From contig JAQAZP010000279.1 of NCBI GenBank assembly GCA_032127265.1, positions 1,272-65,271 on the forward strand: DNA of 64,000 nucleotides, written 5' to 3'. The stretch is from Acidobacteriota bacterium. Lineage in GTDB: Bacteria; Acidobacteriota; JAQAZP01. Below the pieces are notes generated by a model. That model did no database searches and was not told the DNA's origin. It was given only the letters and a program-made list of their open reading frames with translations. Shown in pieces: positions 32,701 to 37,618 of this stretch; position 1 is the first letter of the stretch, and each line of letters begins with the position of its first letter. The position numbers and the translations under genes were made by a program.

Positions 32701-32858
32701 CCCTGGGCTTCGGCGAGGGGGCCGAGCTGCGGGCGCCACTGGCCTACGCCATCATCGGCGGGCTGTTCAGCTCCACCATCCTCACCCTGGTGGTGCTGCC
32801 GGTGGCCTATGACCTGATCGACCGCCTGCGGCCCGCCGGCAGGGGGAAGGACGCGTGA
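29703..32858 (+). CDS. Efflux RND transporter permease subunit (AcrB/HAE family)
   Basis: 1051 aa with the 12-TM RND pattern. N-terminus MKAIASLAVRFPVTVVMIFTGVLLLG, and conserved TM4/TM10 regions (ALGVGLLVDNAIVVIENI; IAGIAVNDGIILIDF). The start overlaps the adaptor-protein stop (ATGA). Confidence 0.85.
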   Translation: MKAIASLAVRFPVTVVMIFTGVLLLGYISLDKLGIDLLPDISSPKVVVVLESGNRPPREMEDVFGEQLESQLSTISGVSRVSSVSRVGSIMVTVEFYWDSDMDFALLEVQKNIGYLQADREVDNLSIRRFDPQAAPVLRVGMFPAAGDDSGADLDEMRRLAEDYVRPALERLRGVAAVRISGGREREVIVETDEFLLDAFGITVDDVASRVREANIDTSGGTLEEEGKIYVIKGVGRFTDLDQLRALTVAYLDRSKAPSDLASQDTAFDPLKVPVPLSRVARVYYGDKEVRNLVRINGTEGVGLSVHKEGGSNTVTVSDDVRRTLDQLSRSLPGVRFEVVRDQARFISGSIREVEEQALIGALLAVVILFLFLRSFGATLVIALAIPLSIVATFVLMYFAGLSLNIMTLGGLALGVGLLVDNAIVVIENIYRHLQAGKGKIEAAIDGASEVGGAIFASTLTTCVVFLPVVFIGDITGELLKEQAFTVSISLLCSLVVAMVLIPMLASRMLKGKRAEAAGAASEHLVRSRVYNGLLDWALNHKLIVVVITLILGLFSAEAFRRCGTEFLPRADQGEFGIRLALPEGTPVQRTAAVTGFVEDLLLENFAAEITAVYSDIGKRRLEDELLTEEVWDENTALVLVSLKPFSERRLHTSAIIGAIDPVLRNVPGLEATYNLGETALQQTIGSGDAQVSIEVRGPDVDRLREISDEVAAQLEEMNAGGKGIYNVRTSFQGGREELAIHIDRMTAASLGLDVTTITRLVRRKLYGEEISIFRAEDEDRDISIRHPMMNLEQLLGLEIENPTGTRILLKDIADVRTESGPREILRRGQSRVALVQADLAEGVPLSEVSGEIGSRLDGVNIPQGYRFLVGGEELRRQESFEKLRFAMLLALLLVYMVMASQFESLLHPFTIMLTIPMAGVGVAALFFITGLPLSVMAFIGIIILAGIAVNDGIILIDFVGLLRRRGMKRKEALLAAGQARLRPILMTSSTTILALLPLSLGFGEGAELRAPLAYAIIGGLFSSTILTLVVLPVAYDLIDRLRPAGRGKDA

Positions 32859-35800: not shown

Positions 35801-37618
35801 GCCGGCATGCTGCCGCTGGCCATGCGCATGGGCGGCGAGAACGAGATCTGGCCTCCCTTCGCCATCGCGGTGATCGGCGGCATGGCCACCTCCACCGTCG
35901 GCACCCTGCTGCTCATCCCCATGGGCTTCCTCTCCTTCCGTTTCATCGGCCGCTGGATCCGCGAGACCCTGGGCCTGCCCTGGTCGCTGGCCGGCACGCT
36001 GCTCTCCGCCGTGGCGATCTGGGCGCTCTACTTCGAACTGGGCTGGATAGACTCGGAGGTCTGGCGGATCATCTTCCTCCTGCCGATCTGGTTCGCCGGG
36101 CTGGGCCTGGTCCGTTTCGGTCTCTGGCTGGCCCGGGGAAAAGAGCGGCGGGAGATCTTCGGCGCCGACCAGCCGCTGGACATCGCGGTGCGGGAGCTGA
36201 AGAAGGTCTACGGCGAGGACGGGCCCTTCCTCCGCGGCTGGAAACAATACGGCCGCTGGCTGGAACATGCCCGGCGGCGCGGCATGCCAATGGAAACGAG
36301 GCGCCGGCTGGCTGTCGACCTGTTCTGGAAGGTCCCCTTGCTAGCCCTGATCTTTTACCTGCTGACCTACTTCGAAAACCGCTTCTGGCTCTTCGTCTTC
36401 ATCGGCGTCACCTGGTATTTCGTCCGGAACTTCCTTGTCACCATGACCGCGCTGTGGAGGCTGCGGCGGGGTGGGGAGCCGGCGCCCGGGGTACCGATTC
36501 CCTTCTCGGAAAGCCGCTGGCTGAACCTGGTCTTTGGCCTTTCCCTGGCCGTGCTGGCCCTGGTCCAGGCCCATTGGGCCTGCGAGCTGCACTACGGTTT
36601 CTCCCTCACTCTCACGGCCATCCTCGGCCTGGTGGCCATGGCCCTGCACAGCGGCCGCCGGCTGCGCAGCGGCGGGACGAGCACCGAGGGACGGGGCGGC
36701 AACATCTTCAAGCGGCTGGGGCGCACCTGGCGGCGGCTGGTGGCGACCATCCCGCGGGTGGGCCACGAAAAAGAGCGGGTGGCCGCGCTGCGCGGGCTGA
36801 CCCTCGACATCGGCGCCGGGATGTTCGGGCTGCTGGGGCCCAATGGCGCGGGCAAGACCACCCTGATGCGGGTGATCTGCAACATCTACGAACAGAGCCG
36901 CGGCACCGTAGCGATCAACGGCCTCGACCCTCGCCAGCACCGGGACGCGGTGCAGAGCCTGGTGGGCTACCTGCCGCAGAACTTCGGGGTCTACGAAAAC
37001 TTCACCGCCTGGGAGCTGCTGACCTACTACGCGCTGCTCAACGAGATCTACGACCCCGCAGTGAGGGAGAAGCTGGTGACCGGCGTGCTGGAGCGGGTCC
37101 ACCTGCTGGACCGCAAGGACGAAAAGCTGAAGGGCTACTCGGGCGGGATGAAGCAGCGGGTGGGCATCGCCACGGCGCTGCTGCACCTGCCGCGGATCAT
37201 CGTGGTGGACGAACCCACCGCCGGCCTCGACCCCAAGGAGCGGATCCGCTTCCGCAACCTGCTGGCCGAGCTGGCCAAAGACCGGATCGTCATCTTCTCC
37301 ACCCACATCGTCGAGGACATCTCCGGCACCTGCAACCGGGTGGCGGTGATCGACAAGGGCCGGGTGGTCTTCGACGGCACGGTGGAGGAGATGATCGACC
37401 GCACCCGGGGCAAGGTTTTCGAGGCAGTGACCGAAGAGCTGCTGCTGCCCGAGCTGTCGAAGCGGCTGAAGGTGGTCAACCACATCGGCGAAGGATTCGA
37501 CCGCATCCGACTGCGCTTCCTGGCCGACGGCCCCCCCGAAGGTCTGGAGGCCGAGGAGACAGAGCCCAACCTCGAGGACGCCTATCTCTACCTGCGCGGC
37601 GGGACCGCACCGGTGTAA
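32855..37618 (+). CDS. Fusion protein: RND permease (~1040 aa) + extra multi-TM insertion (~230 aa) + ABC transporter ATP-binding domain (~300 aa)
   Basis: Single uninterrupted 1587-codon frame; the GTG start overlaps the RND1 stop (GTGA). Residues 1 to ~1040 show full RND architecture (LGLLVDNAIVVLESI; LGIVVNNGILLIDY). The C-terminal region has Walker A GPNGAGKTT, signature YSGGMKQRVG, Walker B IIVVDEP and H-loop STHIV, paralogous to the 24183 ATPase (both end NLEDAY..GG). Between them lie four or more hydrophobic helices. Confidence 0.7.
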   Translation: MNLPTLAIKRPVTTVMFFIALGVLGVISYTTLPVQLMPNYIYPKMFVFAGYPGASPEKVEEDLIERLEAEISTLEDIEEIESQSNQDYGVITVSYKLGTDLNYAYLKLEQKANGLIGLLPETATLRVQRFDTSAFANFVMQLDVAGPGGLSYIRRLAEEKIQPKLESVNGVVSVQVFGGQQQAVQVTLDEDRLRSYGIMPTQVLATLNGFHQRREFVGEVMVAGRRQFAMVEGRFTSLQEIRDLPLKTGDGVIFLRDVARVEEAPNRQTQVSRVDGHPTVSIQIQKDEQSNLIKVAQRLRREIAAINKENAATGVRITTAFDSAEYIEEDINRVKMLALSGGLLALLVLLIFLKRPGPVVVVSLAIPVSLLLTFNLMAAAGLAIDVLTLIGLTLSIGLLVDNAIVVLESITRQRERGLPRMEAAVTGSSEVFKAILVGTATTVVVFAPLIWVKTEFTELYNDFALAIIFPLLISLLVAVTLIPMLASRLGRRKDDDPGKRGFRPAEDRKRPQRILQLYTLLLKQCSRHQILTTVLFFAVLMLTVLITTPLILNLFGTGQPPDSRIEMKLEMPEGADLESTEAVTAQVEAMTLDLPDRKVTRSTIREGEAFITVELLPKDERMSDDSLGAIRNKLKDRTEEISGATVLFDRSQFQSARGSDDEGGAAALGLASAVETVVLTGEEMPRLVDLANEVKYRLEQIEGVDDRTIRMDVDDVTPEVRLEARYQDLASWGLSMQQVMGLLWMARREGDQLTYPYRDRQDNEMKIQVRLGEEGDWSFRDLRDLSIPTPNGEFVRVTELMDFKQEAGLPSLLRHQGTHRIRVYYGYELAVLTTQTRLDELRESVDELLLSIPLPRGYTLTAEREDEEQNVWKFMLYVALILVYMILAASFESFTHPLLILFTIPMAMIGVLILLALTGVGLPPLVYLAMLVLLGIVVNNGILLIDYARHLVRNRGFRPERAIIASGRARFRPVIMTAATTIAGMLPLAMRMGGENEIWPPFAIAVIGGMATSTVGTLLLIPMGFLSFRFIGRWIRETLGLPWSLAGTLLSAVAIWALYFELGWIDSEVWRIIFLLPIWFAGLGLVRFGLWLARGKERREIFGADQPLDIAVRELKKVYGEDGPFLRGWKQYGRWLEHARRRGMPMETRRRLAVDLFWKVPLLALIFYLLTYFENRFWLFVFIGVTWYFVRNFLVTMTALWRLRRGGEPAPGVPIPFSESRWLNLVFGLSLAVLALVQAHWACELHYGFSLTLTAILGLVAMALHSGRRLRSGGTSTEGRGGNIFKRLGRTWRRLVATIPRVGHEKERVAALRGLTLDIGAGMFGLLGPNGAGKTTLMRVICNIYEQSRGTVAINGLDPRQHRDAVQSLVGYLPQNFGVYENFTAWELLTYYALLNEIYDPAVREKLVTGVLERVHLLDRKDEKLKGYSGGMKQRVGIATALLHLPRIIVVDEPTAGLDPKERIRFRNLLAELAKDRIVIFSTHIVEDISGTCNRVAVIDKGRVVFDGTVEEMIDRTRGKVFEAVTEELLLPELSKRLKVVNHIGEGFDRIRLRFLADGPPEGLEAEETEPNLEDAYLYLRGGTAPV

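What the first reader, a model, noticed from the sequence alone, without database searches (positions are those of the whole stretch)
32855..37618. Single ORF fusing a complete RND permease to an ABC transporter ATPase domain
RND pumps are proton-motive-force antiporters and ABC exporters are ATP-driven; I know of no characterised protein combining both. Here a 1587-codon frame encodes a full 12-TM RND permease, then extra TM helices, then a canonical NBD with Walker A, signature, Walker B and H-loop. The locus also carries a periplasmic adaptor, a second conventional RND permease and ABC-2 permeases. This suggests a tripartite-type efflux machine energised or gated by ATP hydrolysis in addition to, or instead of, PMF. 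This is my best candidate for an undescribed system.
Basis: partly seen in the sequence, partly recalled or inferred. Interest (0 to 1): 0.9.

Follow-up and report, generated by a model that had tools for sequence, protein, structure and literature searches.

The report
RND efflux permease fused to ABC ATPase
This is a real, conserved bacterial gene that joins a complete proton-driven-type (RND) efflux pump subunit to an ATP-driven (ABC) motor domain through six extra membrane helices; it occurs in many phyla inside one fixed operon, is named only generically in databases, and I found no paper that describes it.

Summary
ORF 32855-37618 (+) encodes 1,587 aa: a full-length RND permease (Pfam ACR_tran 5-1028), six extra TM helices, and a catalytically intact ABC ATPase domain. 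It is not a frameshift or lost-stop artefact. GC3 stays at 0.84-0.96 in one frame. More than 120 full-length (1,550-1,600 aa) homologue clusters at 33-87% identity keep the same layout, including complete genomes of cultured Cytophagales and MAGs of Acidobacteriota and KSB1.

- The NBD is split. Its beta1/A-loop strand (aa 1108-1119) is separated from the rest by a ~190-aa insertion with 4 TM helices.
- The NBD is a 46.5%-identical paralogue of the operon's free ATPase.
- Both RNDs in the system lack AcrB's D408 and K940.
- The fusion always sits in the order MFP, plain RND, RND::ABC, NosY-like ABC-2 permease.

Best reading (inferred, not shown): an ABC-2 module (fused NBD plus small permease) is tethered to an MdtBC-like two-paralogue RND pump, giving an integrated two-stage exporter. 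ATP-powered RND cycling is not excluded. Databases name the protein only generically, and six full-text searches aimed at the fusion found no paper. Verdict: new variant of known kinds, high interest.

The parts
24183..25070 (+). Free ABC ATPase (295 aa), DrrA/GldA-class; a paralogue of the fused NBD. First gene of the operon in this lineage.
   Evidence: Pfam ABC_tran E 3.8e-34. NCBIfam best hits drrA and GldA. 46.5% identical to the fused NBD over 273 aa. Present in 6 of the loci examined and absent next to the KSB1 operon.
25063..28464 (+). 1,133-aa protein: N-terminal multi-TM region (weakly ABC-2-like) plus a ~830-aa extracytoplasmic part with an M1-peptidase-like segment (no HExxH) and a Golvesin_C domain. 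Overlaps the ATPase gene by 8 nt.
   Evidence: Pfam Golvesin_C E 3e-19, Peptidase_M1 (C-terminal part only) E 1e-7. ABC2_membrane_4 E 0.01 on the first 320 aa. Hydropathy and absence of HExxH. Orthologues in L002, L003, L085, L086, L087 and L089.
28594..29703 (+). Periplasmic adaptor (membrane fusion protein), 369 aa.
   Evidence: Pfam HlyD_D23 E 2.7e-24, HlyD_3 E 1.3e-16. Found upstream of the RND pair in 10/10 loci with enough sequence.
29703..32858 (+). Plain RND permease (1,051 aa), paralogue of the fused RND (30% identity). Its stop overlaps the fusion's start by 4 nt.
   Evidence: ACR_tran E 8.7e-232. 30.4% identity to the fused RND. GCGTGAAC overlap. Present directly upstream of the fusion in 11/11 loci.
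32855..35938 (+). RND permease moiety of the fusion (aa 1-1028): 12 TM plus both large periplasmic loops. Relay positions are D (AcrB 407), N (408), N (940), R (971), T (978).
   Evidence: ACR_tran 5-1028, covering 3-1020 of 1021 profile positions. Relay alignment to AcrB over 120 fusions. Closest solved relatives are MdtB, AdeB and AcrB.
35987..36124 (+). Extra TM13-TM14 hairpin (aa 1045-1090), returning the chain to the cytoplasm.
   Evidence: Hydropathy. Helices 12-32 and 39-72 of the AF2 model. Positive-inside analysis.
36176..36211 (+). Detached beta1 strand of the NBD with the A-loop tyrosine (LDIAVRELKKVY, aa 1108-1119).
36224..36745 (+). ~190-aa insertion in the beta1-beta2 hairpin of the NBD: basic amphipathic helix (aa 1124-1142), TM15-TM18 (aa 1152-1266), second basic helix (aa 1283-1297).
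   Evidence: Alignment A1 against the uninterrupted free ATPase. AF2 helices. Periplasmic loops of only 2-8 residues, and K+R about 32 on the cytoplasmic side vs 1.4 on the periplasmic side. No structural match in the PDB.
36779..37618 (+). Remainder of the ABC nucleotide-binding domain plus a C-terminal beta-domain (aa 1309-1587), with all catalytic motifs intact.
37629..38360 (+). Small 6-TM ABC-2 (NosY-like, type V) permease of 243 aa; the inferred transmembrane partner of the fused NBD.
   Evidence: ABC2_membrane_2 30.8 bits, above the 27.2 gathering score. JGI uses a NosY-type COG name. AF2 model best matches NosY (TM-score 0.56-0.65), then PmtCD, KpsM and ABCG. Lies immediately downstream of the fusion in 11/11 loci.

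Best explanation
The ORF is a genuine gene for an 18-TM inner-membrane protein. It has three parts: an HAE-1-like RND permease, a 6-TM tether, and a cytoplasmic, catalytically competent ABC-2-class ATPase domain. That domain arose as a paralogue of the operon's free ATPase, and its first strand is separated from the rest by a 4-TM insertion. The protein is the signature subunit of a conserved operon whose invariant core is adaptor (MFP), plain RND, RND::ABC and a small NosY-like ABC-2 permease. A free ATPase with an ABC-2 permease carrying a large periplasmic domain is often present as well, and an outer-membrane factor lies in the operon in some lineages, mainly Bacteroidota. Proposed working (inferred): the two RND paralogues form an MdtBC-like hetero-oligomer that docks to the adaptor and an outer-membrane channel. 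The fused NBD dimerises and pairs with the small permease to form a type V ABC module held against the RND membrane domain by the tether. The ATP-driven module moves substrate from the cytoplasm or inner leaflet to the outer leaflet or periplasm, or transmits mechanical force there as NosDFY does. The RND/MFP/OMF conduit then expels the substrate across the outer membrane. Shown here: the gene is real, it is conserved, the motifs are intact, the topology fits, the NBD is a paralogue of the free ATPase, the NBD is split, and the operon is invariant. Inferred: who pairs with whom, the stoichiometry, the substrate, and the energy coupling.
For: Real and conserved: ORF and domains; unbroken GC3; more than 120 full-length clusters at 33-87% identity in several phyla, including complete genomes of Fulvivirga ligni and Marivirga harenae; a linker-only profile finds 144 clusters, and in all 22 hits of >=1,480 aa the linker starts at residue ~1,020-1,080. 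Active NBD: Walker A, Q-loop, signature, Walker B Glu, D-loop and H-loop His are invariant; the A-loop Tyr on the detached beta1 is conserved in at least 90% of the 12 sequences; the model superposes on complete NBDs, with 235 of 238 residues of 1vpl at 1.7 A. Cytoplasmic NBD: extra TMs come in pairs and the positive-inside rule holds strongly. ABC-2 pairing: the NBD is of the DrrA/GldA/NosF/ABCA class; the small permease passes the Pfam ABC2_membrane_2 threshold and folds like NosY; it follows the fusion's stop within about 10-20 nt in the window and L085, and it lies directly downstream in 11/11 loci. The KSB1 operon has the fusion and small permease but no adjacent free ATPase, which suggests the fused NBD does not need it. 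Two-RND pump: a plain RND is always directly upstream, with start/stop overlap; one adaptor serves both; an OMF lies in the operon in four Bacteroidota loci (L003, L005, L006, L089) and in L002. The fused RND's periplasmic part is still conserved (31.5% mean identity vs 36.9% for the plain RND). Precedents: HAE-1 heterotrimers such as MdtBC exist (PMC8277102), and inner-membrane pumps feed tripartite pumps (abstract of PMC4338810).
Against: There is no direct evidence for any protein-protein contact, stoichiometry or substrate. RNDs are trimers and NBDs act as dimers, so the model needs a 2:1 heterotrimer, dimerisation between trimers, or the free ATPase as the second NBD; none of these could be tested. 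Both RNDs lack two of the three charged residues of the AcrB proton relay, so PMF coupling of the RND half is assumed, not shown. The 4-TM insertion has only low-to-moderate model confidence (pLDDT 42-77) and no structural analogue, so its role as a mere tether is a guess. The Foldseek E-values for the small permease are weak (>=0.09).
Confidence: 0.45

Rival explanations
1. ATP-powered RND. The NBDs, through the 6-TM tether packed against the RND membrane domain, drive the RND conformational cycle directly, replacing or supplementing the proton-motive force. The small permease is an accessory. This is essentially the first reader's proposal.
For: All 120 fused and all 7 partner RNDs examined have Asn in place of AcrB D408 and K940, residues described as part of the essential proton relay triad (PMC8277102). 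All of the closest solved RNDs keep the lysine. The covalent link and the membrane-embedded insertion inside the NBD are strictly conserved, which is more than a loose association would need.
Against: D407, R971 and T978 are retained in essentially all sequences, so a reduced relay may still work. The plain partner RND has no NBD yet shares the same relay variant, so the variant is a clade trait and not specific to the fusion. I did not test whether RNDs with this variant occur outside these operons. A dedicated ABC-2 permease is always next to the NBD, which is the normal sign of an ordinary NBD-TMD pair. There is no precedent for an NBD driving an RND fold.
Confidence: 0.2
2. Super-complex through an NBD heterodimer. 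The fused NBD pairs with the free ATPase (24183-25070). This joins the two ABC-2 halves (the big Golvesin_C permease and the small permease) into one heterodimeric ABC transporter anchored to a single fused RND protomer, for example plain2:fused1 by analogy with MdtB2C.
For: The two NBDs are paralogues (46.5% identity, with shared 'ERIRFR' and C-terminal 'LEDAY' motifs). Each is followed by its own ABC-2-like permease. The ATPase/big-permease pair co-occurs with the fusion in the window lineage, Cytophagales, Acidobacteriota and others. One NBD per RND trimer would resolve the trimer/dimer mismatch.
Against: The KSB1 operon lacks the free ATPase and big permease within 9 kb upstream and 3.7 kb downstream. 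Both NBDs have fully canonical motifs, with none of the degenerate-site asymmetry common in obligate heterodimers. Fused NBDs are closer to each other across phyla (49-57%) than to free ATPases (38-46%), which shows two old, separate lineages but does not settle the pairing.
Confidence: 0.2
3. Regulatory NBD. ATP binding or hydrolysis does not move substrate but gates, assembles or resets the RND pump, for example by coupling pump activity to the cell's energy state.
For: Catalytic motifs are conserved, and the solved complex closest to both the fused NBD class and the small permease (NosDFY) is, from my own knowledge and not tested here, thought to use ATP for a periplasmic mechanical task and not for classic transport (fold matches).
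Against: A pure regulator would not need a dedicated 6-TM ABC-2 permease kept next to it in every locus. Nothing here tests regulation.
Confidence: 0.1
4. Artefact: a sequencing frameshift, lost stop codon or chimeric assembly has joined a normal RND gene to a separate ABC gene.
For: Some database relatives are split or truncated on error-prone long-read or short contigs (L001, L002). One 2.4-kb MAG contig has an in-frame stop just after TM12.
Against: GC3 is continuous in one frame. The identical protein and 79-87% relatives come from independent assemblies. More than 120 full-length clusters keep the same length and layout, including finished genomes. The linker itself is conserved and occurs only after a full RND.
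Confidence: 0.01

Closest known systems
MdtABC-TolC (E. coli) and MuxABC-type pumps: two tandem RND paralogues with one adaptor, forming a heterotrimer
   Same: The gene order is adaptor, RND, RND, with two divergent paralogues (26-30% identity) and translational coupling. MdtB is the best solved-structure match of the fused RND. The review confirms that HAE-1 heterotrimers exist.
   Different: Neither Mdt subunit carries extra TM helices or an NBD. Mdt proteins keep the AcrB-type relay lysine (MdtB 'KKN' vs 'VNN/VND' here). Heterotrimer formation here is untested.
NosDFY (NosF ATPase + NosY ABC-2 permease + periplasmic NosD)
   Different: NosF is a free soluble subunit without a TM insertion. 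There are no nos genes or copper enzymes here, and the partner is an RND efflux pump. Sequence identity is only about 17-31%.
MacAB-TolC (ABC-driven tripartite efflux pump)
   Same: An ABC ATPase operates in the same operon as a periplasmic adaptor and, in some lineages, an outer-membrane factor. The NBD is covalently fused to membrane helices.
   Different: MacB is a type VII ABC transporter with 4 TM and a large periplasmic domain that contacts the adaptor itself. Here the periplasmic machinery is an RND, the inserted 4-TM unit has only 2-8-residue periplasmic loops, and no MacB-like chain appears among the listed fold matches (top 50-60).
YbhGFSR-type systems (adaptor-associated ABC-2 exporters) and the DrrAB/GldA class
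   Same: The NBD is of the ABC-2-class (best NCBIfam hits GldA and DrrA). There are separate 6-TM ABC-2 permeases, and an adaptor gene is in the operon.
   Different: Those systems have no RND component and no fusion. All NCBIfam scores here are far below the family cut-offs (176 vs 402 for GldA), so this is not a member of those named families.
Functional cooperation between single-component inner-membrane pumps and AcrAB-TolC (two-stage efflux)
   Same: The proposed logic is the same: an inner-membrane transporter delivers substrate to the periplasm or outer leaflet, and an RND tripartite pump expels it (abstract of PMC4338810).
   Different: In the known cases the two transporters are separate proteins with no physical link. 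Here they would be covalently joined and co-inherited.

Membership tests
RND superfamily, HAE-1-like permease (AcrB/MexB/MdtB type) | 12 TM helices with two large periplasmic loops (porter and docking domains); full-length match to the family model | tested here: met
   ACR_tran covers residues 5-1028 against profile positions 3-1020 of 1021, E 1.9e-184. Best PDB relatives are MdtB, AdeB and AcrB. However, NCBIfam RND_permease_2 scores 546.6 bits against a cut-off of 1250, so it falls below every curated subfamily threshold.
RND superfamily, HAE-1-like permease (AcrB/MexB/MdtB type) | Proton relay D407, D408 (TM4), K940 (TM10), with R971 and T978 (TM11) | tested here: not met
   D407, R971 and T978 are kept. 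D408 is Asn and K940 is Asn in 120/120 fusions and 7/7 plain partners. The definition of the relay is taken from PMC8277102.
RND superfamily, HAE-1-like permease (AcrB/MexB/MdtB type) | Operon partners: periplasmic adaptor and outer-membrane factor | tested here: met
   The adaptor is adjacent in 10/10 loci. An OEP gene lies inside the operon in L003, L005, L006 and L089 (all Bacteroidota) and downstream in L002. No OEP gene was found next to the operon in the window itself.
RND superfamily, HAE-1-like permease (AcrB/MexB/MdtB type) | Trimeric assembly; proton-driven drug antiport | not testable with these tools
   This needs biochemistry or a structure.
ABC ATPase (nucleotide-binding domain) | Walker A, Q-loop, ABC signature, Walker B with catalytic Glu, D-loop, H-loop | tested here: met
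ABC ATPase (nucleotide-binding domain) | Contiguous domain with an N-terminal beta1 strand carrying the A-loop aromatic residue | tested here: not met
   The strand and its Tyr are present (aa 1108-1119) but are separated from beta2 by a ~190-aa insertion containing 4 TM helices. The model still places the strand so that 235 of the 238 residues of 1vpl superpose.
ABC-2 / type V ABC exporter (NosFY, DrrAB, Wzm-Wzt, ABCG/ABCA class) | NBD of the ABC-2-associated class | tested here: met
   The best NCBIfam hits are GldA and DrrA. The best PDB sequence hits are ABCA7/4/1, TM0544 and NosF. The best fold hits are TM_1403, TM0544 and NosF.
ABC-2 / type V ABC exporter (NosFY, DrrAB, Wzm-Wzt, ABCG/ABCA class) | A 6-TM ABC-2 transmembrane subunit encoded alongside | tested here: met
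   The small permease scores 30.8 bits on ABC2_membrane_2 against a gathering score of 27.2. Orthologues give sub-threshold ABC-2 hits. The AF2 model's first 27 ranked hits are all type V TMDs, with TM-score up to 0.65 but E >= 0.09. It is adjacent to the fusion in 11/11 loci.
ABC-2 / type V ABC exporter (NosFY, DrrAB, Wzm-Wzt, ABCG/ABCA class) | Physical NBD2-TMD2 complex and ATP-driven transport | not testable with these tools
MdtBC-type heterotrimeric RND pump | Two divergent RND paralogues in tandem behind one adaptor gene | tested here: met
   A plain RND lies directly upstream of the fused RND in 11/11 loci, with one MFP. The two share 26-30% identity within a genome.
MdtBC-type heterotrimeric RND pump | Obligate heterotrimer of defined stoichiometry | not testable with these tools
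   NCBIfam MdtB and MdtC models score about equally for both paralogues and far below their cut-offs, so there is no orthology to either.
MacB / type VII ABC transporter | NBD fused to 4 TM helices with a large periplasmic domain between TM1 and TM2 | tested here: not met
   The periplasmic loops of the inserted 4-TM unit are 2-8 residues long. No MacB/FtsX chain appears among the listed fold matches (top 50-60).

The most novel reading that the evidence does not exclude
A transporter in which ATP hydrolysis by a covalently attached ABC domain powers, or is obligatorily coupled to, the conformational cycle of an RND permease that has lost the canonical AcrB proton relay (D408 and K940 both replaced by Asn). 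This would be the first primary-active or dual-energised member of the RND superfamily, and a natural chimera of the two main energy-coupling classes of tripartite efflux pumps.
Probability: 0.2. Interest if true: 0.95.

Novelty: new variant of a known kind. Interest (0 to 1): 0.75.

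Why it matters
RND and ABC pumps are treated as the two alternative engines of Gram-negative tripartite efflux, one driven by the proton gradient and one by ATP. A family that joins them covalently, kept intact across distant phyla, implies that the two machines work as one unit. Either an ATP-driven inner-membrane step feeds an RND conduit directly, or ATP acts on the RND cycle itself.

Either outcome would be informative. 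It would give a natural, purifiable complex for studying how substrates are handed from the cytoplasm or inner leaflet to RND pumps. It would also test whether the RND fold can be driven by something other than protons. The split NBD, with a 4-TM hairpin inserted between its first two strands, is itself an unusual solution for anchoring an ABC motor in the membrane.

Cultured hosts with finished genomes (Fulvivirga ligni, Marivirga harenae) make genetics and cryo-EM feasible. The substrate is unknown. The associated periplasmic Golvesin_C / inactive-M1 domain protein hints at a glycan, peptide or envelope component and not a classical drug.

Tried and rejected
1. Frameshift or lost stop: rejected (GC3 profile; conserved full-length orthologues).
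Only L005 and L006 were true members, and L038 turned out to be an ordinary ATPase. This scan therefore gave no systematic taxonomic census.
3. A clean relay difference between the plain and fused RND: only a tendency. Position 941 is Asp in 5/7 plain partners and in 5/120 fused RNDs, which is not diagnostic.
4. Stand-alone (unfused) versions of the TM-inserted NBD: none convincing. The short hits begin inside RND TM12 (P0298, P0248, P0365) or sit on indel-split long-read contigs. P0271 has an in-frame stop after TM12 on a 2.4-kb MAG contig, which is unresolved.
6. Packing of the tether against the RND, or NBD-permease contacts: not assessable.
7. Organism identity: exact look-ups of the fusion, PNPase and plain RND returned no organism names. 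Only the 65% GC content and the 82%-identical JGI relative L085 with the same flanking genes are known.
8. Active M1 peptidase in the big protein: rejected, because no HExxH is present.
9. Literature: six full-text queries aimed at the fusion (and the Chem Rev review) found no description. Subscription-only papers were not searchable.

Full report
OBSERVATION. The window contains an ORF at exactly 32855..37618 on the + strand with a GTG start, encoding 1,587 aa (translation). Pfam places a complete RND permease on residues 5-1028 (ACR_tran, profile positions 3-1020 of 1021, E 1.9e-184) and an ABC ATPase domain on residues 1314-1456 (ABC_tran, E 1.7e-25). The ABC motifs are canonical: Walker A at 1328-1336, Q-loop at 1371-1375, signature at 1428-1435, Walker B at 1448-1455 and H-loop at 1481-1488. 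Between the two domains a hydropathy scan finds six further hydrophobic segments. GC at the third codon position stays at 0.84-0.96 in one frame along the whole ORF, across the junction and linker. The window sequence therefore shows no sign of a frame change.

IS THE FUSION REAL? A search with only the linker and NBD (aa 1030-1587) returned more than 100 proteins at about 40% identity that carry both PF00873 and PF00005. They come from Bacteroidales, Zixibacteria, Acidobacteriota, Latescibacterota, Hydrogenedentota, Aminicenantes and Spirochaetales, and most are contig-truncated. A search with the full protein returned the window's own protein (100% identity, NCBI, 71.5-kb contig) and four relatives at 79-87% identity. 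It also returned more than 115 further full-length clusters of 1,550-1,600 aa at 33-41% identity. These include finished or near-finished genomes of cultured Cytophagales (Fulvivirga ligni, Marivirga harenae, Chryseotalea sanaruensis, Xanthovirga aplysinae) and MAGs of Acidobacteriota and KSB1. A profile built from the linker alone (alignment A2, 265 positions) and run against 1.84 billion representative proteins found only 144 clusters. In all 22 hits of at least 1,480 aa the linker begins at residue ~1,020-1,080, directly after a full RND. The shorter hits I inspected are fragments that start inside RND TM12 or pieces of indel-split genes on long-read contigs. One 2.4-kb MAG contig has an in-frame stop just after TM12, which is unresolved. 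A sequencing or assembly artefact is therefore excluded for the family and, in practice, for this window.

THE NBD AND ITS LIKELY PARTNER. The fused NBD is 46.5% identical over 273 residues to the free ATPase encoded at 24183-25070. Across phyla, fused NBDs resemble each other more (49-57%) than they resemble free ATPases (38-46%), so the duplication is old. By sequence and fold the NBD belongs to the class that serves ABC-2 (type V) membrane domains. Its best NCBIfam hits are GldA and DrrA, far below their cut-offs. Its best PDB sequence hits are ABCA7/4/1, TM0544 and NosF. The gene that starts 11 nt after the fusion's stop, behind a GAGGAAAG motif, encodes a 243-aa 6-TM protein. That protein passes the Pfam gathering score for ABC2_membrane_2, and JGI names it with the NosY-type COG. 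Its AF2 model (pLDDT 68) best matches NosY (TM-score 0.56-0.65), followed by PmtCD, KpsM and ABCG proteins. The first 27 ranked hits are all type V domains, although the Foldseek E-values are weak, at 0.09 or higher.

THE OPERON. I compared the window with L001-L003, L005, L006 and L085-L090 (tblastn table). Wherever flanking sequence exists, the fusion is preceded by a plain RND (11/11) and an adaptor (10/10) and followed by the small permease (11/11). The plain RND's stop overlaps the fusion's start by 4 nt (GCGTGAAC) in the window. The called gene coordinates show the same 4-nt overlap in L085 and an 8-nt overlap in F. ligni. A free ATPase plus a ~1,100-aa protein opens the operon in the window lineage, Cytophagales, Acidobacteriota and others. 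That protein has an ABC-2-like N-terminal TM region, an M1-peptidase-like segment without HExxH, and a Golvesin_C domain. This pair is absent next to the KSB1 operon. An outer-membrane factor gene lies inside the operon in the four Bacteroidota loci (L003, L005, L006, L089) and downstream of it in L002. None lies near it in the window. The invariant core is therefore adaptor, plain RND, RND::ABC and small ABC-2 permease.

THE RND HALVES. Both paralogues are HAE-1-like; the closest solved relatives are MdtB, AdeB/AdeJ, AcrB and MexB, all of 1,069 aa or fewer. They share 26-30% identity within a genome. The plain RND is the more conserved of the two: across loci, mean identity in TM regions is 59% vs 46%, and in periplasmic regions 37% vs 32%. 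So the fused RND's periplasmic machinery is still under constraint. Aligned to E. coli AcrB (fetched), all 120 fused and all 7 plain RNDs keep D407 and T978. R971 is kept in all but one fused sequence. All of them have Asn at D408 and Asn at K940. Position 941 is Asp in 5/7 plain partners and in 5/120 fused RNDs. AcrB's relay is defined as D407/D408/K940 with R971 and T978 (PMC8277102), and the closest solved RNDs all keep the lysine. The system's RNDs therefore fail the AcrB-type relay test, though a reduced D407/R971 relay remains possible. Because the plain RND shares the variant, it is a clade trait and not a consequence of the fusion. I did not test whether RNDs with this variant occur outside these operons.

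HOW IT MOST LIKELY WORKS. The following are shown: a real, conserved 18-TM RND::NBD protein, an intact and cytoplasmic NBD, an ABC-2 permease always adjacent, and a second RND and an adaptor always present. From this I infer, with confidence about 0.45, the following model. The fused NBD dimerises and pairs with the small permease to form a type V ABC module. The 6-TM tether holds this module against an MdtBC-like hetero-oligomeric RND pump. Such heterotrimers are known for HAE-1. The ABC module then performs the inner-membrane step, either flipping or extracting substrate to the outer leaflet or periplasm, or transmitting force as NosDFY is thought to do (the NosDFY mechanism is from my own knowledge). 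The RND/adaptor/OMF conduit completes export. This would be a covalent version of the known cooperation between inner-membrane pumps and tripartite pumps (abstract of PMC4338810). A 2:1 fused:plain heterotrimer would supply exactly two NBDs, but this is speculation.

RIVALS. (a) ATP directly powers the RND cycle (0.2). This is favoured by the missing D408/K940 and the strict covalent link, and disfavoured by the dedicated permease and the identical relay variant in the NBD-less partner. (b) The fused NBD heterodimerises with the free ATPase, joining both ABC-2 halves to the pump (0.2). This is weakened by the KSB1 operon and by the absence of motif asymmetry. (c) The NBD is regulatory (0.1). 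(d) The fusion is an artefact (0.01).

COMPARISON AND NOVELTY. The system works like a combination of an MdtABC-type pump and a NosFY/DrrAB-type ABC-2 module, but it is not a member of any named family. All NCBIfam scores are far below their cut-offs. The AcrB relay test is not met. The NBD is not contiguous. MacB-type architecture is excluded by the 2-8-residue periplasmic loops, and no MacB-like chain appears among the listed fold matches. Databases hold the sequences under generic names only. Six full-text searches aimed at the fusion, together with the major 2021 review of tripartite pumps, gave no description of an RND-ABC fusion. Subscription-only literature could not be searched. I rate it a new variant of known kinds with high interest (0.75). 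If ATP proves to drive the RND cycle it would be categorically new (probability about 0.2).

LIMITS. The substrate and the physiological role are unknown.

Noticed in passing
window 25063-28464 (+): A 1,133-aa protein combines a multi-TM, weakly ABC-2-like N-terminus with a large extracytoplasmic region. That region holds the C-terminal part of an M1-peptidase domain (no HExxH anywhere in the protein, so probably inactive) and a Golvesin_C domain. It overlaps the free ATPase gene by 8 nt and is conserved in most fusion operons. Its function is unknown.
   Followed up: partly
window 29703-32858 and 32855-35938; also 120 fusion proteins and 7 plain partners: Every RND of this system carries Asn at AcrB positions 408 and 940 (the Asp-Lys pair of the proton relay) while keeping D407, R971 and T978. 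Position 941 tends to be Asp in the plain partner (5/7) and Asn in the fused one (115/120). None of the closest solved RNDs has this variant.
   Followed up: partly
L090:2-130 (MAG contig JAMHJE010019392.1, 2.4 kb): In one Bacteroidota-like relative there is an in-frame stop codon just after where RND TM12 ends, 14 codons before the called start of the TM13-NBD part. It could be a natural split (two-gene) variant, a pseudogene or a sequencing error.
   Followed up: partly
L001 and L002 (ENA long-read contigs): The RND and fusion genes are broken into several overlapping called genes. P0072 and P0082 jump from an RND periplasmic segment straight to the end of TM14. These look like indel or collapse errors of long-read assemblies and not real short variants.
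   Followed up: no
window 32852-32858 and 37616-37634: The plain RND stop TGA overlaps the fusion's GTG start (GCGTGAAC), with GGGGGAAGGA just upstream. After the fusion's TAA stop comes GAAGAGGAAAG and then GTGATGATG, the small permease's start. This arrangement fits translational coupling of all three membrane subunits.
   Followed up: yes
window 38361-41436 and L085:15505-23929: Downstream of the operon the window has short ORFs without Pfam hits and an M10 (matrixin) peptidase with a PPC domain (40033-41436). The 82%-identical relative L085 also has FG-GAP/DUF7948 proteins between the operon and the same M10 peptidase. The long minus-strand ORF 40063-44328 (1,421 aa) is probably a GC-rich shadow ORF of these plus-strand genes.
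   Followed up: no
window 7197-10199 (+), 16078-17832 (+), 43264-46572 (+): Other notable genes are a 1,000-aa sulfatase fused to many TPR repeats, an FG-GAP beta-propeller protein with a C-terminal dockerin domain, and a 1,102-aa hybrid histidine kinase (PAS-GAF-PAS-HisKA-HATPase, two receiver domains, Hpt). None is linked to the operon in other lineages.
   Followed up: no
L086:1-5745 (Acidobacteriota MAG): This locus has two consecutive Golvesin_C proteins (at least 881 aa and 1,139 aa) upstream of the adaptor instead of one, and a NosD/beta-helix-like 711-aa protein downstream of the small permease.
   Followed up: no
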